Sequence record: NZ_CP118990.1
Reading direction: 5' to 3' (one strand)
Length of the DNA stretch: 64,000 nt
Origin: a plasmid
A program made the position numbers and the translations under genes. Position 1 is the stretch's first letter. The number at the start of each line of letters is the position of its first letter. Below the pieces are notes generated by a model, which was not told the DNA's origin, did no database searches, and worked only from the letters and a program-made list of their open reading frames with translations. Shown here piece by piece: positions 9,726 through 31,591 of this stretch.

Positions 9726-11861
9726 CTACTTCGCCGCCTCCGCACGATACTTCACCAATTTAGCCTCCTTCGTCATACTGGCCTTGGTCAGCAGATTGAT
9801 CAGCCTCGCATTGAGCATGGCCGCCCTGATCCCCTTCAACATGACCTCCCCTTCCTCGGTAACCATCAGAGCCAAGAAATCACGAATCTGTGCTGCATAG
9901 GTGATGGCCCACTGGTCAGGATCTTTGATCTGGGACTCTCGCGGCATCGCGGACAGAAGGTTGTAGAGACGATTATCATTGCTGGTGGTCATGGTTCCCC
10001 AGAACTCAGCACACACACCGGCCATAACCGCCTTATCCGGCCCATCCAAGGCTATATTGAAGAGGTTTGCCAGGCGCTCACGTCTATATCCAAGAACTGA
10101 CTTCATGGTTTTCCTGCACAACGCGGTATCAAGCTCACGGAGAAGCTTGGTTCTGACCGCCACCTTCACCAGGTCGGCCCTATAGAGCTCAACAATATCG
10201 GGCATGGTGAGATAACGAGCGCGGCCGAAGTCTACCGATTTCAGGATATGGGTAATCTCGTTGCTGAGAGTCACGGCTGATACATCGCTGAGTTCGTCAG
10301 ACGTCTCCTCCTGTAACCCCTTAGGCAGTTGCGCGGAATGTTCTCCAGCATCCTCACTCTGCCCATTATGGGGCGAGTGTTTATGGGAGATCCGGTGGCG
10401 TGTCAGCTCGATCTCGACCTTTAGGCCATCGAGAATGAATAGTTTGCAGTTCTCAGGGGTAATGGGGGTGAATTGCGTATCGGTGTGTCTACGATAGGCG
10501 CACTCCAGTACCCCGCAGCCCACCAGCTCGACAAGGGCTACCTCCAGCATTTTGACGTGCCTCTTCTTGTAGTACCCGGCTTCTGTTAGGGGGTGAATAC
10601 CCTCAAGAATCCCTCTAACAGACAATTTTTTGTTGATGTAGACCCAATCTTGCTTGAACTGCCCATTCCCGATCGTTGTCAGCCAAAGGCTGAATATCCG
10701 GCTGATCGGATGCTCAAAACCAATGATGGTGCTCCTGTTGACTGCGATGAGACGACTTGCTGCTCTGTACATCTCGCGCATTGGCAAGTTGGGCGTGATC
10801 CGGATGATGCCGTCCCCATCCAGGCTAATAACACTGACGAGGCCAACGATCATCACCGAGCCTTTCATCCGGGAGCTATCCTTACTCTCCTTACCACTAT
10901 GGACCTCTGCGTCCTCAGGTTGCCTGAACAAAGTCATTTGGAAGGCATGAAGACGCTTCATGGAGTGCAGGATCTTGTCGGTCCGCATGAAGTCGCTGAT
11001 GTAGTTCCCAAATTCTGCTGGAGATAAAAACTCCGCTAATGGGGAGTAGAATTGCTCCGGGGTGACCTCGATATACGACGCAGCGGCTCTCTCATACTGA
11101 GCATCAGTCATCGAACCAAGTAACTTGACTAGGCACAGGTACGTCTTGATGTCCAGGTCTGTATCCAGCACAGGCCCAGCCAACGTCATTGCCTTGTACC
11201 CATTCATGAAGCGTGGATCCACCTCATAGACGATCTTGCTGTCCAGCACCGGGCGCAAGGCGGGGTTGTTGATCAGGTTTCTGTTGAGTGTGCGAAAAAT
11301 ACCGGTCCCGATAACCAGCTGGGTGTGATTGTCCAAAGTCACAGGTAGAGGCCCCCTTTGTTCTGACATGTCAAACACCCTGGTTGCACTCTCCGAAGCG
11401 GAAGAGGGTAATTCCGGCTCTGACTTACCTGCTGGAGTGAGAGGCGGTACCCGCGCTGGCTCGACTTCGAGTTCCGGCTCAAGCTCCGGTTCTGGTTGAG
11501 GGGGTAAAGGGTTATCACCAATCTGTGCTGATGGGGCCGGAGCCGGAGATGGTAATACGGGGGCCAACCTCGGGCTTTGCTCGGAAGGTTCGCCCTGTGT
11601 CGTCAACGACGGTTGAGGGTCACTATCCTCCTCCTCGATCAGCCAAGAGCTATCATCAAAGAAGGCAACGAACCTTGCTACCACTTGGTCAGGATTCCGA
11701 GAGGGAGAGTCCCTGAGGAATTGGCACATGGGGAGTATTTTTGCTCGGTCCACAAGGCTGCTAAAGAAAGCGATGCTCTTCTGGTTAGCAGGCAACCCGA
11801 TCTTCTGAGCCTCATATTTAGCGATTGCCGTCACAATTCGCGCTACCGCATCATCTGTCAT
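9726..11861 (-). CDS. Large hypothetical protein (711 aa) with Pro/Glu-rich linker; candidate Rep-like or DNA-binding protein by position only
   Basis: Long uninterrupted ORF; PQPEPELEPELEVEP low-complexity linker; sits beside second iteron-like array. Confidence 0.45.
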   Translation of the reverse strand: MTDDAVARIVTAIAKYEAQKIGLPANQKSIAFFSSLVDRAKILPMCQFLRDSPSRNPDQVVARFVAFFDDSSWLIEEEDSDPQPSLTTQGEPSEQSPRLAPVLPSPAPAPSAQIGDNPLPPQPEPELEPELEVEPARVPPLTPAGKSEPELPSSASESATRVFDMSEQRGPLPVTLDNHTQLVIGTGIFRTLNRNLINNPALRPVLDSKIVYEVDPRFMNGYKAMTLAGPVLDTDLDIKTYLCLVKLLGSMTDAQYERAAASYIEVTPEQFYSPLAEFLSPAEFGNYISDFMRTDKILHSMKRLHAFQMTLFRQPEDAEVHSGKESKDSSRMKGSVMIVGLVSVISLDGDGIIRITPNLPMREMYRAASRLIAVNRSTIIGFEHPISRIFSLWLTTIGNGQFKQDWVYINKKLSVRGILEGIHPLTEAGYYKKRHVKMLEVALVELVGCGVLECAYRRHTDTQFTPITPENCKLFILDGLKVEIELTRHRISHKHSPHNGQSEDAGEHSAQLPKGLQEETSDELSDVSAVTLSNEITHILKSVDFGRARYLTMPDIVELYRADLVKVAVRTKLLRELDTALCRKTMKSVLGYRRERLANLFNIALDGPDKAVMAGVCAEFWGTMTTSNDNRLYNLLSAMPRESQIKDPDQWAITYAAQIRDFLALMVTEEGEVMLKGIRAAMLNARLINLLTKASMTKEAKLVKYRAEAAK

Positions 11862-21277: not shown

Positions 21278-21908
21278 CTATGCGGCTATGCTGGTGTCCA
21301 CCCTTTGCTGGGCGTAGTAGCCAATCCCGGTAGGGCGCCGTGAGAGAGTATCGATCCCAACAATGCTGAGTGTTTTAGGCGAGACATTACGGGACTCAAA
21401 GAAGTGGAACAACTGCAACATACAGCACTTGACCATTAATCTATCGATGTCTTCGAGATAGATCGATGCACTACTCAGGGCTTCCGGCCCTTGGCTCTCA
21501 AGCAGATGTTCCATCCATTGGATGGCATTTATTCCCGAGCCGCAGCACGGTTCGAAAAAATCTGCCGACGGAGTTGAGCCAACCAGCTGTGACAGGAGGC
21601 GGCCAACCCCTGGAGGTGTCGGAAAGTAGTTGGTTCCCTTCTTGTGAAAACCGGACATGCTAAGCACGTAACCAATTACATCGCTGGTAGGATCTTGCTT
21701 CATGGCCGCAGAGAGAACGTGTGACAGCTCGATAGCGACGGGCTGTAGTTCATCAGGAATGGTGTTGGCGGGAGGATAGAGCCCAGTTTGGAGGTAGGCC
21801 CATTGGTCGATAAACGCCTCAACAAATGCCGAGGTACCCATCCGATAACGCGCTTGCTCAATGAGTGTCAGCGCCTTGTTAGCTAGGGGGGTTATCTGAG
21901 GTGTCATT
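21278..21908 (-). CDS. SAM-dependent methyltransferase-like protein (N6-DNA-MTase-like motifs YFPTP and FFEPCCGSG), short
   Basis: Motif I FxGxG-like EPCCGSG; start set at MTPQ (GGAG RBS); no clear motif IV so function uncertain. Confidence 0.45.
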
Positions 21909-21990
21909 GGATGCTCCAGTGTAGTAACAGAAAAAGTTGTTTGCGCCCAAAGAAGACCCCCGGCCAAGGCCGGGGGTCATTGAGACAACC

Positions 21991-24938: not shown

Positions 24939-26231
24939 TTACGCATTATTGGTCGTTTTTTTTGCAACAACCTTACCGGTAGTATTGTCCATGCGGTACT
25001 GCGAGATTGTTCCATCCAAAATGTGGTGAATAACTTCAAGGATGGTTGTCAATGGAGTATGGAACCATTCTCTCGGGGCATAGCTGGTGCCATCAACCCC
25101 CTTCAAGGTGATATCGAGGCGCTGCTTGGCGAGAAAACCGTGCACCAAGGTCTCCAACTTGTGGGTGTTCATGTTGAAACACAGGAAGGTCGTGATGACT
25201 CTGACCGGTGCTTGCAGGAACGTCTTGTCTTTCTCGGCGTGCTTTATCCGGTCTTCGACGGTGCCCTCGGTGAAACCTATCTTGTAGAGATTTTGTTTAA
25301 AGGGCATCAATACCGGGTCCGTGCTCTTTGTTGCGAGTACATAGACAAAGCCGCTTGGAATAGGCGCGTCATTTGGCAAGAGGGGTTTGTCACCTAGCAT
25401 GACCTTACGGCCCTCCTTGTCACGAATAAGCCCCTGGGTTAGTGACTGGTAGAGCATATGCAGCTCAGTGCCATTATCAAAAACCAGGTGAAGTCGTGCG
25501 TTATACCTCTCGTATTGTTCCAATCGTTCTCCAGCACTATGCACATAACCCATCACCCCATTCAGGATGAAGAAATCCCCAACCTGAAAACCATGCTCGT
25601 TTCGATAGCGCACGAGGGAGAACTCTTGGCCTTGCAGGCCCGTTTTCACGGTCTCAAACAGCGGCGCAAAACGAGCGAAATCAGGACAGGGCTGGCGCTG
25701 GGCTATCTCGTCAGGTAACGCCTTTTTCTCCCTAGGCACATGCTGCATGCTGAATATATCGGGAGCATCAAAATCCAATAACCCGAGATCATCGTCGGCA
25801 AAAATATCGTCAAGCGAGGTCACTAGCTCAGACGTGTCAACGGTCGATGCATTAACCGTCTCAGCAGCTACATCCTTTGCATGATACTGCTCATGCTTCT
25901 CTGCCACACTCCCAACAACCTCGATCCCTGCCAACAGGCCATGGATATCCTGACCTGAAAGGGCACGGCATTGATCTGGATCTGTGCGTATCGCCTGCAA
26001 TCGCCTTGCAAGACGCTTCTCGGACATATCGGCAGAGTACGAGTTCTGAGGGGCTCTACCGTGTTGTTCAAAAAACGCCACTATGTCCCCAAACTGGTTG
26101 CTCACGAGGTCAACTGGCGTGCTTCTCGGTTTTAGGGGCTCTACATCAAGCAAACCCAATACATCGTCTTCAGCGAAGATATCTTCAAGAGATGCTTTGG
26201 GTTTGAGCTGATGTGATCGCAACAGGATCAT
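24939..26231 (-). CDS. T5orf172 / GIY-YIG-like nuclease-domain protein with duplicated acidic N-terminal motif
   Basis: C-terminal GFVYVLATKS...LYKIGFTEGTVEDRIKH...REWF segment matches T5orf172 (GIY-YIG-like) domain; start overlaps helicase stop (operon). Confidence 0.6.
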   Translation of the reverse strand: MILLRSHQLKPKASLEDIFAEDDVLGLLDVEPLKPRSTPVDLVSNQFGDIVAFFEQHGRAPQNSYSADMSEKRLARRLQAIRTDPDQCRALSGQDIHGLLAGIEVVGSVAEKHEQYHAKDVAAETVNASTVDTSELVTSLDDIFADDDLGLLDFDAPDIFSMQHVPREKKALPDEIAQRQPCPDFARFAPLFETVKTGLQGQEFSLVRYRNEHGFQVGDFFILNGVMGYVHSAGERLEQYERYNARLHLVFDNGTELHMLYQSLTQGLIRDKEGRKVMLGDKPLLPNDAPIPSGFVYVLATKSTDPVLMPFKQNLYKIGFTEGTVEDRIKHAEKDKTFLQAPVRVITTFLCFNMNTHKLETLVHGFLAKQRLDITLKGVDGTSYAPREWFHTPLTTILEVIHHILDGTISQYRMDNTTGKVVAKKTTNNA

Positions 26232-26234
26232 TAC

Positions 26235-28268
26235 TTAGCTCTCCTGTTTAGCCGCAGATTGTTGTTTCTTCTGTTTGATGTAGGCCAGCGCTTCTGCCAA
26301 TCGTACCTCGATGGGATCAGGCGCATGCAAGGAAGGTGCCCGCTGGTTTTGCTGTGTAAACTCCTTGATCCTCGGCCACAGCATGACCGCCTCTTCCTCG
26401 GAGAGTTGTGACTTGCTGGCACTGACTGCTTCCTGAATGGTTTTGAGCATGGTGGCCGTCACAGATTTGGAGAGGATTTCATAGGCCCCGTGGAACGGGT
26501 TAACCGATTCGATCAGGTCGATGTTCAGGTTGTCGATGTTGATGAACTTCTCACCGATTTTTAAGAACTGCTTACTGGCAGTTGCTTCATCCTTGGTCGC
26601 ATCGGGGCTTGTCCCTCCGATAGAAGTGGGGCTCGGGCCTCCTACAATCTCGGCATCGGGAGGCAAATCACTTTGATTGATCAGCCCGCCCTGCTGATTG
26701 ATATACATGCTTTGCAGCAGGCCGGAACGAACTTGCTCTATCTCATGGGGCAATAGGTCGGGGTAGAGTTCCTGAATGACCGAGGGCAGTTCTAACTGAG
26801 TAAATACCTCGGGCGGAGCTGTTTCAGTAATGGCCTCTTTGACCACCTTCTCCTTGGCCATCAGCGCAGCCAGGATCTCCTCTTTGCCACCATTGAGAAT
26901 ATCTAACACTGTTTGCGACACTTGCACGGTCTCATCACCAACGAGCACTGTATTGGGTGGCAGTACCTCCCCAGTCCATTGTGAGCGAGGCTTGAACTGA
27001 ATATTGGGAGCCAAGATCTGCTCCATCAGTAGGGAAGTGGTGATCGCCTTGAGCATGTTGTTGACCGACACCTTCACATCGTCATCCTGGGCATCAGGCT
27101 GGGCAATCAGGTTTGTGAACTGGGCGTGGGTTTTACCAGGACAATCACGGGTCGCACGACCGATGATCTGCACGACTTCGGTCAGCGAGCTGCGATAACC
27201 AATGGTCAGCACATGCTCGCAATAGGGCCAGTCAAAACCCTCTTTCGCCATGCCAAGGGCAATGATGATATCCATGTCATCAGCTGATTGGATTGTACGT
27301 AAATAAGCCTGCACCTTGGGGCGCTCATTGGCATCGTCATCCACCAGATTGGCAACCTTGAGCAGCTTGCCATCTTCATGTCGTTTCACCAAGTAGATGC
27401 TAGTGTCGGGATCTTTCGACTGCACCTCGCCCAGCACATCCAAGATAGCATCGACCTCGGTGTGCTTGTCCTTGGTGGACTCGCCAGAGTTCACGTTCGG
27501 GATGTGGATAATGGTTTTCAGAGAAGCGTTCAACACCGAAGGCAGAGCACCGATATATTGACCCTGGTAGAAGTGGTAACCAATTCCGAGAGATTTCAGG
27601 TGTTGATAGCCGTTCAGTTGCTCGTAATAGGTGTAGGTGACCTTGGTAAACTTGGCTTCATCCTCTGGTGTCAGGATGGGCACGGTATCGCCACGGAAAT
27701 AAGATCCTGTCATAGCAACGATATGTGCATTGGACTGCTGGATTAAACCGTCGAGTAGCGCTCCGAGGCGGCTATCTTCACTCGCGGAAACATGGTGAAA
27801 CTCGTCGATAGCAATCAGACAATCGTTAAACGAGGTGATATTTACCTCGTCAAAAGCGAAGCGCAGGGTGGCGTGGGTGCAGACAAGGATCTGGTCATCA
27901 CTCTCCATAAAGCGCTTAAACGCGGCCACCTTGCTTTTTTCACCACCATGAATGCAGAGATTGTTTTCAGGTTTAACCTGCCAGTTCGCAAAGAATCCGT
28001 ATTCGGCCAATGTAGTGTCTTTAAACGATGTGCCGATAGACATCTCAGGCACCGCGACGATGACTTTCCGCAGGCCCTGATTGAGCAGCTTGTCCAACCC
28101 CAAAAACATCAGTGCACGGGATTTGCCGCAGGCGGGCGGCGCTTTGATAAGCAGATAGGGGCTGTTGCGTTGAGCGAAGGCGCGGGCCTGCATCTCCCGC
28201 ATCCCCATGCTATTAAGCGCCGAGCTCTGCCCGTTCTGGGCATAGGTCACTTGCAAGATGTTTTCCAT
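26235..28268 (-). CDS. SF2 DEAD/DEAH-box helicase
   Basis: Walker A PPACGKS, DEFHHV (DExH), motif VI QIIGRATR. Confidence 0.75.
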   Translation of the reverse strand: MENILQVTYAQNGQSSALNSMGMREMQARAFAQRNSPYLLIKAPPACGKSRALMFLGLDKLLNQGLRKVIVAVPEMSIGTSFKDTTLAEYGFFANWQVKPENNLCIHGGEKSKVAAFKRFMESDDQILVCTHATLRFAFDEVNITSFNDCLIAIDEFHHVSASEDSRLGALLDGLIQQSNAHIVAMTGSYFRGDTVPILTPEDEAKFTKVTYTYYEQLNGYQHLKSLGIGYHFYQGQYIGALPSVLNASLKTIIHIPNVNSGESTKDKHTEVDAILDVLGEVQSKDPDTSIYLVKRHEDGKLLKVANLVDDDANERPKVQAYLRTIQSADDMDIIIALGMAKEGFDWPYCEHVLTIGYRSSLTEVVQIIGRATRDCPGKTHAQFTNLIAQPDAQDDDVKVSVNNMLKAITTSLLMEQILAPNIQFKPRSQWTGEVLPPNTVLVGDETVQVSQTVLDILNGGKEEILAALMAKEKVVKEAITETAPPEVFTQLELPSVIQELYPDLLPHEIEQVRSGLLQSMYINQQGGLINQSDLPPDAEIVGGPSPTSIGGTSPDATKDEATASKQFLKIGEKFINIDNLNIDLIESVNPFHGAYEILSKSVTATMLKTIQEAVSASKSQLSEEEAVMLWPRIKEFTQQNQRAPSLHAPDPIEVRLAEALAYIKQKKQQSAAKQES

Positions 28269-28291
28269 GCTTGAATCCTTGTCAAAATTGT

Positions 28292-30979
28292 CTAGAGGGT
28301 AGCAGCGGTGAGCTTTTCATAGATTCCGAGTAGATGGCTTACCCGATCCGCTGCATCCTTAAATGGGCGATCCCGATAGAGCTTATCGACAGCACTATCC
28401 AGTGCCTGATGTGCCTCAAGCAGTCCAGCAGGCATGTTGTCGGGGTCATAGAGTTCGGCCAGCGTCTTGCCAGGGTAATCCTCTCGTGCCAACTCAACCT
28501 CCTCAGCCAATCGCTCAATTTCTTTGCGCTGATTCGTCGTAACAGTGGGCCAAGGGAAGGTGTTGTAAACGACCTTATTTCCATAGCTGTACCGGCTTTC
28601 TAGCCTCATTGCCACTAGTCGCATCCAGTCGTTGTGGAGTAATGAGGAGAGGATACCGAATTCATACAGAGTACCATTTGGAAGAATGAAGTTTCGGTCA
28701 GAGCAAATGACATCCGAACTAAAGAATCCCATAGGGACATAGGTTCTACGCTCAGATGAAACACGGGGTACCAGAATATAATCGCCGGAAGTCGGCTGGC
28801 TTACCTGCATAAAAACATGTGGCTTTTCGGCCATCTTAAGTGCTGCTGGGTGACCAGCTTTGATACGAAGTTGCCGAATAATAGATGTTCTTTTCATGAC
28901 CTCAGGCATAGCCAGTAGCTCATCCTCTGAGGCATCTACCAGCCATAAACACCAACGTTCCTTGGCATTTATAAACTCTTCCGCCCCTAATATTTTTTTT
29001 ATCCAGCGTTCTGCCTGAGGTTCGCGTCTCAGTAGTTCGTCTCGCTCATCTCGGGTCAACAGTAAATGACCACCATCTGTTGGTTTATTACCAAATAGCA
29101 ATGGTGGTATGTCGCTTATCAATGGTTTGTTTCGTGCGACGACGGCGATATTACTGCCTTCTACCAGATAGGGACTGATATTTGAAACTGTGCGGCTATG
29201 CCATTCACCATCTACTTGTTGAAATAGCTGCTTGTGTTTTGAACGGGAAGATAGTCCTACAATTACAACATGAACTCCTGCTTTATCACGTGCATTATTG
29301 GCCCATGGAAAACTGGGATAAGCGAGATGAATATGTAAATCTAACGCAAAAATTCTGGGCCAGAGCGTAGCAACTTGTTCACCTTGGCAGATGGAATTGG
29401 TAGATACCAGTGCCAGCTCAGCCCGGGAACCTTGTATATACTGTGCCCCCTTCCAAAACCAACAGGCGACAAAATCCAGATATCCCAGCGCTTTATCATT
29501 GTTAAAAACGGCCTGCATATTCGCGCGCTGTTCATCTGAACGACCCAATGTACCCAAGAAGGGTGGATTCCCGATCACATAGACATCATCCTCAATCCCT
29601 TTGGGGCAGACCTTATGCCAATCTAAAACCAGACTATCACCGCTCACGATATTGCCGGATGATCTCAGTGGTAGCGCGGGGGGGGCATAGCCGAAAGTCT
29701 GCTCCCACTGCTTGTTGAGTTGATGTTCGGCCAACCAGAGTGCAAGGCGGGCGATCTCACAGGCAAAATCGTCAATCTCGATACCGTAAAACTGATCGAG
29801 GTGCAGGCTGCTCATGGAGAAGCCCTGCTGCGGTTCAAGCTGTTGCAAGGCTTGAATGGCCAGTCGCTCCAAGGTATGCAACTCCTTGTAGGCGACGATC
29901 AGGAAATTGCCCGAGCCACAGGCGGGATCGAAGACTTTGATGTTACCTAGGCGCATCAGCAGTTTTTTGAGGCCATTGGCACTCTTTCGATTTTTTTCCA
30001 ACTCGGCCCGCAGTGAATCCAGAAATAGCGGTTGGATCACCTTCATGATGTTGCTGTACGAGGTGTAGTGCTGGCCCAAATTGCCGCGCTGCTCGACATC
30101 GATCACCGCTTGGAACATCGAACCGAAGATATCCGGGTTGATGTCCCCCCAGTTCATCATGCAGCACTCCAGCAGGATCTTGCGGCCCTGCTTGCCAAGC
30201 GCCGGGATGGGCTCATCCACCGCGAATAGCCCGCCGTTTACATAGGGGAAGGCCGCCAGATGGGACGGCAGGGTTTTGCGTAACTCGCTATTGGGTTCGC
30301 TGTTCATGACGGCGAACAAGTCACTGAGGAACTGATCGAGGTCGCTGCCGTCCTCCTCGGTGTAGCCTTTAATGGCAGAGGTGAACTGACCCTGATTAAA
30401 GATCCCCGTATCTTCGGCGAACAGGCAGAACAGCAGCCGGGTCAGGAATACGTTGAGGGCATGAATATCCTCAGGTCTACTCAATTCATTGAGGCTCTTG
30501 ATGAGATCGAAGAGCTTGCCCATCTTCTCGGCAGCCTTCACATCGGCAGGGTTCTCGGCACCCAGAATCGCCTTCTCAAGGCCTGCTAAGGGTAGGAAGA
30601 AACCATATTCGCGGAACAGTTCGCCGAGCTCAGTATCGAGTCTCTCCTCAGTCAGAACGTCCCACGCGAGGAAGCGAACAAAATCGGTGAGGATGACGAA
30701 GCGGTATTTGTGCTTGGTGCTGGCACATTCTGCAATCCGCTGTTCAAAAAGGAGCTCGATATCGGCGCCTTCATCCACCGGCTGAAAGTAGAACTTTGAG
30801 TTGATGCCAACGTGGCCCGATTCTTTGGCAAGGTTGCGACTCCCCCCTTGCCTGATATGCGTGATCGTGGCCTTGGGCAGTCCATAGGCGGCCATAAAGG
30901 CAAAGATAAATTCGGATTGGTCAGGTGCGCTGACCAGCGCTTTCAAGTCATCGGAGATTTTGGTCTGATTGACGGCCAT
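28292..30979 (-). CDS. MmeI-family (Type IIG/IIL-like) N6-adenine DNA methyltransferase with C-terminal TRD; N-terminal nuclease D-x9-ExK motif not detectable
   Basis: Long colinear similarity to MmeI: LLFCLFAEDT, AAFPYVNGGLF, FDPACGSGNFL (motif I), GNPPF (motif IV), NTFPWP; N-terminal region lacks the EMK catalytic triad. Confidence 0.75.
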   Translation of the reverse strand: MAVNQTKISDDLKALVSAPDQSEFIFAFMAAYGLPKATITHIRQGGSRNLAKESGHVGINSKFYFQPVDEGADIELLFEQRIAECASTKHKYRFVILTDFVRFLAWDVLTEERLDTELGELFREYGFFLPLAGLEKAILGAENPADVKAAEKMGKLFDLIKSLNELSRPEDIHALNVFLTRLLFCLFAEDTGIFNQGQFTSAIKGYTEEDGSDLDQFLSDLFAVMNSEPNSELRKTLPSHLAAFPYVNGGLFAVDEPIPALGKQGRKILLECCMMNWGDINPDIFGSMFQAVIDVEQRGNLGQHYTSYSNIMKVIQPLFLDSLRAELEKNRKSANGLKKLLMRLGNIKVFDPACGSGNFLIVAYKELHTLERLAIQALQQLEPQQGFSMSSLHLDQFYGIEIDDFACEIARLALWLAEHQLNKQWEQTFGYAPPALPLRSSGNIVSGDSLVLDWHKVCPKGIEDDVYVIGNPPFLGTLGRSDEQRANMQAVFNNDKALGYLDFVACWFWKGAQYIQGSRAELALVSTNSICQGEQVATLWPRIFALDLHIHLAYPSFPWANNARDKAGVHVVIVGLSSRSKHKQLFQQVDGEWHSRTVSNISPYLVEGSNIAVVARNKPLISDIPPLLFGNKPTDGGHLLLTRDERDELLRREPQAERWIKKILGAEEFINAKERWCLWLVDASEDELLAMPEVMKRTSIIRQLRIKAGHPAALKMAEKPHVFMQVSQPTSGDYILVPRVSSERRTYVPMGFFSSDVICSDRNFILPNGTLYEFGILSSLLHNDWMRLVAMRLESRYSYGNKVVYNTFPWPTVTTNQRKEIERLAEEVELAREDYPGKTLAELYDPDNMPAGLLEAHQALDSAVDKLYRDRPFKDAADRVSHLLGIYEKLTAATL

Positions 30980-31071
30980 GATGATCCTTGGTGCTCTACT
31001 GCAATGTCACATCCACGTAGGGAGGGCAGTGTTCATATTCGATTGGGCACAATGGTAAACCATTGACGCTA

Positions 31072-31094
31072 CGAGACACGAGACACGAGACACA
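31072..31094. repeat. Heptanucleotide simple repeat (CGAGACA)x3.3 in divergent promoter region of the MTase operon
   Basis: acgagacacgagacacgagacaca read directly. Confidence 0.6.
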
Positions 31095-31120
31095 ATCTTT
31101 GCGAGAAGCGGGCACAATTC

Positions 31121-31552
31121 ATGTTCCCGATCTGGTCATCGGAGTTCACTGAAATCGTGTCCACTCGTCCAAATTTGTACAACTGCACCAGTATCATGAC
31201 TTGCGGGATAGTAGAGGCTATTCAGCCACTGGTTATGAAGGGTAGGACAGACTGCGATCCCTTTATGCGCTATTCCATCAGCGATTTGACGACAGTCTAT
31301 GGTGGCATGTTTGGCAGAGGAAGTAGGCCATTCGGCCGTTATGGGTATCTGACTGACTCCAAGACCCCTGATCCCTACCTGCTTTTGCCAGCAGACAGGG
31401 AGGAGGTCAAAACACTCTTCAAGTGCCGGGACTCATCACTGCCCGCTTATCTGCTTGATTACGTGCGATGCCAGAGTCACGGCCAGATCATCTATCCTTG
31501 GAACATGGGGCGGGACAGTGTTTTCCCTGTCGGCGTGGTCTTCTTCCACTGA
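31121..31552 (+). CDS. Hypothetical protein
   Basis: 143-aa ORF followed by hairpin terminator. Confidence 0.35.
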   Translation: MFPIWSSEFTEIVSTRPNLYNCTSIMTCGIVEAIQPLVMKGRTDCDPFMRYSISDLTTVYGGMFGRGSRPFGRYGYLTDSKTPDPYLLLPADREEVKTLFKCRDSSLPAYLLDYVRCQSHGQIIYPWNMGRDSVFPVGVVFFH

Positions 31553-31564
31553 TTAGAATGAGAA

Positions 31565-31591
31565 AGGGGCCTTAGGCCCCTGCTTCGTTTT
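31565..31591. terminator. Terminator hairpin ggggccttaggcccc + T-rich tail (shared by convergent genes)
   Basis: Perfect 6-bp GC stem, loop tta. Confidence 0.6.

What the first reader, a model, noticed from the sequence alone, without database searches (positions are those of the whole stretch)
24939..30979. Candidate split restriction/defence system: nuclease-motif-less MmeI-family MTase-TRD + DEAH helicase + T5orf172/GIY-YIG protein
Three minus-strand genes are transcriptionally coupled: a 23-bp gap between MTase and helicase, and a 4-bp overlap between helicase and the T5orf172 gene. The first (895 aa) is colinear with MmeI (Type IIG/IIL) through the gamma-class N6A MTase motifs and a C-terminal target-recognition domain. 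I cannot find the N-terminal D-x9-ExK endonuclease motif that MmeI uses to cut DNA. The second is an SF2 DExH helicase (motifs I, II, VI intact). The third carries a C-terminal T5orf172 (GIY-YIG-like) domain. Together these give the activities of a Type ISP enzyme (MTase-TRD, translocase, nuclease) on three polypeptides, with a GIY-YIG-type rather than Mrr/PD-ExK nuclease. I do not recognise this exact trio as a named system (it is not BREX, DISARM, Type I or Type III by gene content). It sits in cargo just upstream of topB and traI; the equivalent SXT/R391 hotspot often carries anti-phage systems.
Basis: partly seen in the sequence, partly recalled or inferred. Interest (0 to 1): 0.85.

Follow-up and report, generated by a model that had tools for sequence, protein, structure and literature searches.

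The report
Known YeeABC-type three-gene restriction system
A plasmid-borne operon pairs a DNA methylase that has lost its own cutting site with a helicase and a separate nuclease; it is real and very widely conserved, but this gene trio and this reading of it were published in 2009, so it is not new.

Summary
The three minus-strand genes exist as described: an 895-aa MmeI-family methyltransferase-TRD, a 677-aa DExH helicase and a 430-aa T5orf172/GIY-YIG protein. One detail is wrong. The helicase and T5orf172 genes are separated by 3 nt; they do not overlap by 4 bp.

The methyltransferase keeps the MmeI N-terminal fold but lacks the catalytic D70/E80/K82. None of 53 family members has the ExK. 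Across 80 species-representative genomes from many phyla, the T5orf172 gene follows the helicase in 77 of 77 loci with room. An MmeI-like methyltransferase lies upstream in all 67 loci with enough flank.

Morgan et al. 2009 described exactly this trio (YeeA/YeeB/YeeC type) and proposed a Type I-like restriction system. The B. subtilis copy (DnmA) methylates DNA but gave no restriction in the assays used. In Vibrio crassostreae, resistance to one phage group depended on yeeAB.

The locus sits on a pAsa4-type Aeromonas conjugative plasmid next to topB and traI. Against pAsa4 it carries a recombination patch that swaps the MmeI-rule specificity pair from K-D to E-R. That predicts a changed recognition site. 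The mechanism has not been characterised biochemically.

The parts
28292..30979 (-). YeeA/DnmA-type MmeI-family N6-adenine methyltransferase with fused TRD (895 aa) and no nuclease catalytic residues
   Evidence: Pfam finds MmeI_N/hel/Mtase/TRD/C. Matches the MmeI structure 5HR4 at E=4e-204. Motif I DPACG is at 351-355 and motif IV NPPF at 471-474.
30497..30967 (-). Degenerate MmeI N-terminal (PD-ExK-fold) domain, aa 5-161. H56, Q66 and V68 stand in place of MmeI D70, E80 and K82.
   Evidence: Pfam MmeI_N scores 85 bits. The profile-to-5HR4 alignment has E=3.6e-14. None of 53 family members has ExK at these columns. The catalytic role of D70/E80/K82 comes from PMC4833311.
28544..29158 (-). Target recognition domain, aa 608-812. 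E794/R796 (codons at 28598-28600 and 28592-28594) are equivalent to MmeI E806/R808.
   Evidence: Pfam MmeI_TRD scores 241 bits. Residue mapping comes from the alignment. pAsa4 has K794/D796 instead. This is the most diverged stretch against pAsa4.
26235..28268 (-). YeeB-type SF2 DExH helicase (677 aa). The core spans about aa 26-410, followed by a conserved C-terminal region of unknown fold.
   Evidence: Weak Pfam DEAD/ResIII/Helicase_C hits. Motifs I, II, III and VI are intact and conserved in 79 homologues. Full-length homologues at 51-74% identity occur across many phyla.
24939..26231 (-). YeeC-type protein (430 aa). It has an N-terminal helical module (aa 39-100), two acidic L.DIF..DD.LGLL motifs (aa 15-29 and 140-153), a beta-rich middle domain (aa 180-280) and a C-terminal T5orf172/GIY-YIG domain (aa 294-403).
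30980..31590 (-). 611-nt upstream intergenic region, presumed to hold the operon's promoter (not identified)
   Evidence: No convincing ORF. The only promoter-like match ends 2 nt before the ATG. A terminator-like hairpin lies at 31565-31581 after the upstream gene. No Rfam family matches.

Best explanation
This is a YeeA(DnmA)-YeeB-YeeC-type three-gene restriction-modification-like defence operon. It is carried as cargo on a pAsa4-type (MOBH, MPF_F) conjugative plasmid beside topB and traI.

Shown here: the first protein is an MmeI-family gamma-class N6-adenine methyltransferase with a fused TRD and intact catalytic motifs. Its N-terminal domain keeps the MmeI fold but not the catalytic residues. 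The second protein is an intact SF2 DExH helicase. The third carries an intact T5orf172/GIY-YIG domain. The three genes are an almost invariant unit across bacterial phyla and are under purifying selection.

Inferred: the methyltransferase-TRD reads a short asymmetric site and methylates one adenine on one strand to mark self, as MmeI and DnmA do. At unmethylated sites, its degenerate N-terminal domain recruits or licenses the helicase. The helicase translocates on DNA using ATP, and the GIY-YIG protein nicks or cuts. Restriction therefore depends on the methyltransferase subunit, as in Type I, III and ISP systems. Because only one strand is marked, some site-orientation or two-site logic is probably needed to spare newly replicated host DNA.

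By the MmeI covariation rules, this allele (E794/R796) should read C:G at site position 6, while the pAsa4 allele (K794/D796) should read G:C.
For: - **Domain content and motifs:**
- **Synteny:** in 80 species-representative loci, the T5orf172 homologue (full length, 28-59% identity) follows the helicase in 77 of 77 loci with room, usually overlapping by 8 nt. An MmeI-like methyltransferase lies upstream on the same strand in all 67 loci with at least 2.7 kb of flank.
- **Independent gene calls:** these show the same trio in B. cereus and V. parahaemolyticus islands, with integrases and other defence-type genes nearby.
- **Selection:** dN/dS against pAsa4 is 0.089 for the methyltransferase and 0.057 for the helicase.
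- **Specificity residues:** E-R and K/R-D pairs dominate at the position-6 determinant columns (50 of 53), as in true MmeI enzymes.
- **Operon inserts:** related operons hold RhuM, Fic/DOC or Schlafen-type genes between methyltransferase and helicase. From my own knowledge, such genes are also found inside Type I R-M operons.
- **Literature:** the same model was proposed in PMC2731913. DnmA is a site-specific m6A methyltransferase, and a dnmA deletion has no growth defect (PMC7261158). In V. crassostreae, resistance to one phage group depended on yeeAB. The T5orf172 protein Odn is cited as one of the few biochemically characterised members of this GIY-YIG-superfamily domain.
Against: - No biochemical reconstitution of any member turned up in the searchable literature.
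- YeeA alone shows no endonuclease activity.
- The B. subtilis trio gave no restriction of plasmid transformation. Deleting yeeB or yeeC did not change susceptibility to three phages, and the DnmA site is not depleted in phage genomes.
- Translocation, cleavage and subunit contacts are inferences only.
- The helicase has no close solved relative.
- The site-specificity prediction transfers rules from nuclease-containing MmeI enzymes.
- I could not retrieve B. subtilis YeeA/B/C for a direct comparison.
Confidence: 0.6

Rival explanations
1. It is an orphan epigenetic methyltransferase with two inactive relic neighbours. The methyltransferase methylates plasmid and host DNA to tune gene expression, and the helicase and nuclease no longer restrict anything, as concluded for B. 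subtilis DnmA-YeeB-YeeC.
For: In B. subtilis, no restriction of transformation was seen. Deleting yeeB or yeeC did not change susceptibility to three phages, there was no motif avoidance, and m6A altered promoter activity.
Against: All catalytic motifs are intact in all three proteins here. dN/dS is 0.06-0.09. The B. subtilis YeeB and YeeC are reported to lack C-terminal stretches that the Vibrio proteins have, whereas the window proteins are full length relative to the family. Helicase homologues at 73-75% identity occur in Vibrio species, a genus in which yeeAB was needed for resistance to one phage group. The specificity residues are being swapped between otherwise near-identical plasmids.
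Confidence: 0.15
2. It is a methylation-guided defence that does not work by classical DNA cleavage. It could be BREX- or DISARM-like, blocking replication or remodelling DNA, or it could trigger abortive infection with the GIY-YIG domain acting on host or other targets.
For: The DnmA motif is not depleted in phage genomes, and the authors say any mechanism must differ from canonical R-M. The methyltransferase shows partial similarity to DrmMI (111 bits) and weak similarity to PglX. The nuclease protein carries extra conserved domains of unknown function.
Against: No BREX or DISARM partner genes are present (PglZ, BrxC/L, DrmA/B/C). NCBIfam PglX scores are 20-32 bits against cut-offs of 400-900. 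The GIY-YIG catalytic residues are strictly conserved.
Confidence: 0.15
3. It is a complete single-polypeptide Type IIG/IIL enzyme whose helicase and T5orf172 neighbours are unrelated. A pipeline that relies on the PADLOC Type IIG model would label it this way.
For: PADLOC model PDLC03598 'REase_MTase_IIG' matches residues 19-892 at 988 bits. Pfam MmeI_N is present.
Against: The equivalents of D70/E80/K82 are H56/Q66/V68, and none of 53 family members has ExK. Mutating any one of these three residues abolishes MmeI cleavage. YeeA and MslORFHP showed no endonuclease activity. The neighbours are conserved with it in every locus that has enough flank.
Confidence: 0.02

Closest known systems
YeeA(DnmA)-YeeB-YeeC cluster: the 'second group of MmeI homologues' of Morgan et al. 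2009, also studied in B. subtilis PY79/168 and V. crassostreae 7F1_18
   Same: An MmeI homologue without PD-ExK, followed by a DEAD/DExH helicase and then a T5orf172/GIY-YIG protein, in the same order and on the same strand. It sits on horizontally acquired DNA. The proposed Type I-like mechanism is the same.
   Different: It is plasmid-borne on a pAsa4-type conjugative plasmid. The proteins are longer than the B. subtilis ones as reported, and the TRD allele differs. A direct alignment to the B. subtilis proteins could not be made here.
MmeI (Type IIL/IIG), PDB 5HR4
   Same: Colinear from about residue 26 to the C-terminus. It shares the helical spacer, gamma-class methyltransferase, TRD and C-terminal domain, and the same E-R / K-D specificity pairs.
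   Different: The catalytic D70/E80/K82 are absent. MmeI needs no helicase or ATP and has no conserved neighbours.
Type ISP enzymes (LlaGI, LlaBIII)
   Same: The same set of activities: nuclease, SF2 helicase, gamma-class adenine methyltransferase and TRD, recognising an asymmetric site.
   Different: Type ISP enzymes are one polypeptide with an Mrr/PD-ExK nuclease. Here there are three polypeptides with a GIY-YIG-type nuclease, and the helicase shows no detectable specific similarity to them.
Type I R-M (HsdM/HsdS/HsdR)
   Same: Separate subunits, a helicase-type motor, and restriction expected to depend on the methyltransferase. Accessory genes are inserted within the operon.
   Different: There is no separate S subunit, because the TRD is fused. 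The motor and nuclease sit on separate proteins and neither is HsdR-like. Single-strand methylation is expected.

Membership tests
YeeA-YeeB-YeeC type (Morgan 2009 group 2) | An MmeI homologue highly similar to MmeI beyond the first ~100 residues | tested here: met
   The 5HR4 match has E=4e-204 over query residues 68-892. All five MmeI Pfam domains are present.
YeeA-YeeB-YeeC type (Morgan 2009 group 2) | [quoted passage not shown] | tested here: met
   H56/Q66/V68 align with D70/E80/K82. None of 53 family members has ExK.
YeeA-YeeB-YeeC type (Morgan 2009 group 2) | A DEAD/DExH helicase gene immediately downstream | tested here: met
   23-nt gap on the same strand. Motifs are intact. The arrangement is conserved in the 80 related loci.
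YeeA-YeeB-YeeC type (Morgan 2009 group 2) | A GIY-YIG/T5orf172 protein gene next after the helicase | tested here: met
   3-nt gap. Pfam T5orf172. Present in 77 of 77 related loci with room.
YeeA-YeeB-YeeC type (Morgan 2009 group 2) | Direct sequence similarity to B. subtilis YeeB and YeeC | not tested
   The B. subtilis sequences were never returned by name. Bacillus cereus-group and other Bacillaceae trios of 879/641/381 aa were found.
YeeA-YeeB-YeeC type (Morgan 2009 group 2) | Site-specific m6A methylation and phage restriction | not testable with these tools
   This needs a methylome and plaque assays.
Type IIL/IIG (MmeI family proper) | Catalytic PD...(D/E)XK (D70, E80, K82) in the same polypeptide | tested here: not met
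Type ISP | A single polypeptide with an Mrr nuclease, helicase, methyltransferase and TRD | tested here: not met
   There are three separate ORFs. The nuclease domain is T5orf172, not Mrr.
Type I R-M | HsdM, a separate HsdS, and HsdR | tested here: not met
   The TRD is fused. The helicase's best Type I hit in PADLOC is 13.9 bits.
BREX | PglX at the family cut-off, together with PglZ, BrxC and the other BREX genes | tested here: not met
   NCBIfam PglX models score 20-32 bits against cut-offs of 400-900. The operon has only three genes.
DISARM | DrmA, DrmB and DrmC with a DrmMI/MII methyltransferase | tested here: not met
   Only a partial DrmMI match of 111 bits to the TRD part. No DrmA/B/C are present.
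GIY-YIG superfamily (T5orf172 branch) | GIY- and YIG-type tyrosines, a catalytic Arg, and a metal-binding Glu | tested here: met

The most novel reading that the evidence does not exclude
The YeeABC family is a distinct, still mechanistically unsolved class of ATP-dependent restriction-modification system. In it, a catalytically dead MmeI nuclease domain has become the docking or licensing platform for a separate helicase and GIY-YIG nuclease. Assembly would use the ~40-aa helical module shared by helicase and nuclease and the two acidic L.DIF..DD.LGLL motifs. This window and pAsa4 offer a natural near-isogenic pair whose specificity differs by one base (E-R versus K-D), which could be used to prove the model.
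Probability: 0.45. Interest if true: 0.5.

Novelty: already known. Interest (0 to 1): 0.3.

Why it matters
The family is very widespread. At least 592 species-representative genome stretches encode a relative of the helicase, spread over many phyla, and it rides on conjugative plasmids and integrative islands. Yet no member has been reconstituted biochemically, and the PADLOC Type IIG model would label the methyltransferase as a self-sufficient Type IIG enzyme.

For this window, the practical value has two parts. First, it corrects the annotation: the system is three genes, not Type IIG. Second, it points out a natural specificity-switch allele pair on a near-identical plasmid backbone, which could serve as an experimental handle. 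It does not open a new category.

Tried and rejected
- **B. subtilis link:** I tried to retrieve YeeA/B/C by name through Bacillus-type queries and cluster look-ups. None returned them, so the link to B. subtilis rests on the published description and on Bacillaceae homologues.
- **Fold library:** afdb50 was unavailable.
- **Helicase structure:** a PDB profile search found nothing closer than a marginal DHX58 hit at E=0.008.
- **E. coli genomes:** a megablast search found no match.
- **Regulatory elements:** the promoter/terminator scan gave no more sites than shuffled sequence and no credible operon promoter. Rfam found nothing in the window.
- **Readings rejected:** a complete Type IIG enzyme with chance neighbours, BREX, DISARM, Type I and Type ISP membership.
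- **Literature:** searches found no later formal name and no biochemical study of the trio.
Full report
**1. Observation**

The methyltransferase-helicase spacer is 23 nt. The helicase and T5orf172 genes do not overlap by 4 bp. The helicase stop TAA (26237-26235) is followed by 'gta' and then the ATG at 26231, so there is a 3-nt gap. The ORF has no earlier in-frame start. This is a small error and does not affect the case for co-transcription.

**2. The proteins**

*Methyltransferase.* Protein 1 carries all five MmeI Pfam domains in order: MmeI_N 5-161, MmeI_hel 173-252, MmeI_Mtase 328-587, MmeI_TRD 608-812 and MmeI_C 815-892. It matches the MmeI crystal structure 5HR4 at E=4e-204. Motif I (DPACG, 351-355) and motif IV (NPPF, 471-474) are intact.

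The single-sequence alignment to MmeI begins only at MmeI K82. I therefore built a profile of 24 N-terminal domains from homologues (A2). It aligns to MmeI residues 26-195 at E=3.6e-14. In that alignment MmeI D70, E80 and K82 face E/K/V in the family consensus and H56, Q66 and V68 in the window protein. Callahan et al. 2016 state that mutating D70, E80 or K82 abolishes cleavage. In an alignment of 53 full-length family members, none has ExK at these columns, while DPACG and NPP[YF] are conserved.

*Helicase.* Protein 2 has intact SF2 motifs: GKSRA 48-52, DEFHH 155-159, MTGSY 186-190 and QIIGRATR 367-374. All are conserved in 79 homologues.

**3. Conservation as a unit**

A degenerate-pattern scan of one genome per species (GTDB) with a helicase alignment found at least 592 relatives. 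The best 80 loci come from Pseudomonadota, Bacteroidota, Bacillota, Planctomycetota, Chlamydiota, Actinomycetota, Spirochaetota, Melainabacteria and candidate phyla. Helicase identity is 51-74% over the full length.

In my tblastn and ORF analysis:
- A full-length homologue of protein 3 (28-59% identity) follows the helicase in all 77 loci that have downstream sequence. The junction typically overlaps by 8 nt.
- An MmeI-like methyltransferase lies upstream on the same strand in all 67 loci with at least 2.7 kb of flank.
- The 13 loci without a methyltransferase hit all have less than 2.4 kb upstream.

Independent gene calls with precomputed Pfam show the same trio in Bacillus cereus (879/641/381 aa) and in Vibrio parahaemolyticus. 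There it sits on integrase-bearing islands beside Mrr_cat, DUF4276+AAA_21, PDDEXK and WYL genes. A full HMMER pass over 1.84 billion cluster representatives finds 351 clusters at E<=1e-30.

**4. What is already known**

Morgan et al. 2009 (PMC2731913) split MmeI homologues into two sets. [quoted passage not shown] One is a DEAD helicase like YeeB and the other a GIY-YIG-family protein like YeeC. They proposed that the MmeI-like subunit supplies specificity and protective modification, and that its N-terminal domain interacts with separate helicase and nuclease subunits in a Type I-like arrangement with single-strand modification. YeeA and MslORFHP alone showed no endonuclease activity.

Nye et al. 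2020 showed that YeeA (DnmA) makes m6A at GACGAG, that a dnmA deletion has no growth defect, and that plasmid transformation is not restricted. Fernandez et al. 2023 confirmed the methyltransferase-helicase-T5orf172 synteny across species. They found that deleting yeeB or yeeC in B. subtilis did not change susceptibility to three phages. They noted that B. subtilis YeeB and YeeC lack C-terminal stretches present in Vibrio crassostreae. In V. crassostreae, Piel et al. showed that resistance to one phage group depended only on yeeAB.

A 92-94.5% identical copy is annotated on pAsa4 (NC_009349) and other Aeromonas plasmids as 'DNA methyltransferase | helicase-related protein | GIY-YIG nuclease family protein'.

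PADLOC v2 has no model for the trio. The helicase and protein 3 get only marginal hits, but the Type IIG model PDLC03598 matches the methyltransferase end to end at 988 bits. A pipeline built on that model would probably call it a single-gene Type IIG enzyme.

**5. Mechanism**

*Shown:* the three sets of catalytic motifs are intact, the unit is conserved, and it is under purifying selection. dN/dS against pAsa4 is 0.089 for the methyltransferase and 0.057 for the helicase.

*Inferred:* the methyltransferase-TRD binds an asymmetric site and methylates one strand. At unmodified sites the dead N-terminal domain recruits the helicase. ATP-driven translocation then brings the GIY-YIG nuclease to cut.

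Two features may be assembly elements. First, the helicase C-terminus (aa 630-670) and the N-terminal module of protein 3 (aa 46-87) are homologous (hhalign probability 95.7%, E=1e-8). Second, protein 3 has two conserved acidic motifs, L.DIF..DD.LGLL, at aa 15-29 and 140-153. Both roles are speculative.

The main counter-evidence is the negative B. subtilis data and the lack of motif avoidance in phages. I give the restriction model 0.6. The rivals are an orphan methyltransferase with relic partners (0.15), a non-cleaving or abortive methylation-guided defence (0.15), and a self-sufficient Type IIG enzyme (0.02).

**6. Context and an allele difference**

The backbone from topB through a hypothetical gene to mobH/traI and traD is 99.7% identical to pAsa4. 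The flanks of the trio are 99-100% identical. In contrast, 26500-30300 has diverged, down to 74% at 28900-29500, which is the end of the methyltransferase domain and the TRD.

Of the residues known to set MmeI-family specificity, all but two are the same in the two alleles. The window has E794/R796, equivalent to MmeI E806/R808 and 'exclusively' C:G at position 6. pAsa4 has K794/D796, which reads G:C. Across 53 family members these columns are E-R (22), K-D (21) or R-D (7), so the MmeI rule seems to carry over.

This looks like a recombination-borne specificity switch, as expected for a system under selection to restrict. The location beside traI parallels SXT hotspot 5, where defence systems cluster.

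**7. Verdict**

Its remaining interest lies in the unsolved mechanism of the family and in the natural allele pair.

Noticed in passing
window 28592-28600 (methyltransferase codons 794 and 796), compared with L001 (pAsa4): The window allele has E794/R796 where pAsa4 has K794/D796. These are the MmeI E806/R808 positions, which specify C:G versus G:C at site position 6. All other known specificity positions are identical, so a one-base change in the recognition site is predicted.
   Followed up: partly
window 26500-30300, compared with L001: There is a diverged patch (74-97% identity, lowest at 28900-29500) inside a plasmid backbone that is otherwise 99.7-100% identical to pAsa4. It covers the 5' half of the helicase gene and most of the methyltransferase gene, and looks like a recombination tract. 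dN/dS there is 0.06-0.13.
   Followed up: partly
L012-L015, L026, L029, L032, L041, L042, L058, L060, L074, L077, L079, L080 and L082, between the methyltransferase and helicase genes: In 21 of 64 related loci, 0.5-5.4 kb lies between the methyltransferase and helicase genes. Most of these gaps hold same-strand cargo genes: RhuM, Schlafen AlbA_2+HATPase_c_4, Fic/DOC+HTH, HTH_3+Peptidase_M78, or an extra DEAD helicase. A few (L010, L027) hold a split-off 3' part of the methyltransferase gene instead. From my own knowledge, accessory genes of this kind also occur inside Type I R-M operons.
   Followed up: partly
window 26258-26380 (helicase aa 630-670) and 25971-26096 (T5orf172 protein aa 46-87): The helicase C-terminus and the N-terminal helical module of the nuclease protein share a homologous ~40-aa module (hhalign probability 95.7%, E=1e-8). 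It might be a common docking or DNA-binding element.
   Followed up: partly
window 26145-26189 and 25773-25814 (T5orf172 protein aa 15-29 and 140-153): Two copies of an acidic motif, L(E/D)DIFA(E/D)DD.LGLLD, sit in low-confidence linker regions. Both are conserved across the family. They may be short linear interaction motifs.
   Followed up: no
window 21278-21967 (-): A 229-aa ORF matches only the first ~100 positions of the N6_Mtase profile (E=7e-4). Its counterpart on related Aeromonas plasmids is annotated 'type I restriction endonuclease subunit M' (210 aa). It may be a truncated HsdM-like fragment, and its function is unclear.
   Followed up: no
window 30980-31590: The 611-nt intergenic region upstream of the methyltransferase has no convincing ORF, promoter match or Rfam family. 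How the operon is regulated is unknown.
   Followed up: partly
PADLOC model PDLC03598, matched against window 28292-30979: The PADLOC 'REase_MTase_IIG' model matches this nuclease-less methyltransferase end to end (988 bits, against 683 bits for the phmmer match to MmeI itself). YeeA-type proteins would therefore probably be labelled as complete Type IIG enzymes.
   Followed up: partly
window 9726-11861 (-): A 711-aa ORF has no Pfam match at E<=0.001.
   Followed up: no
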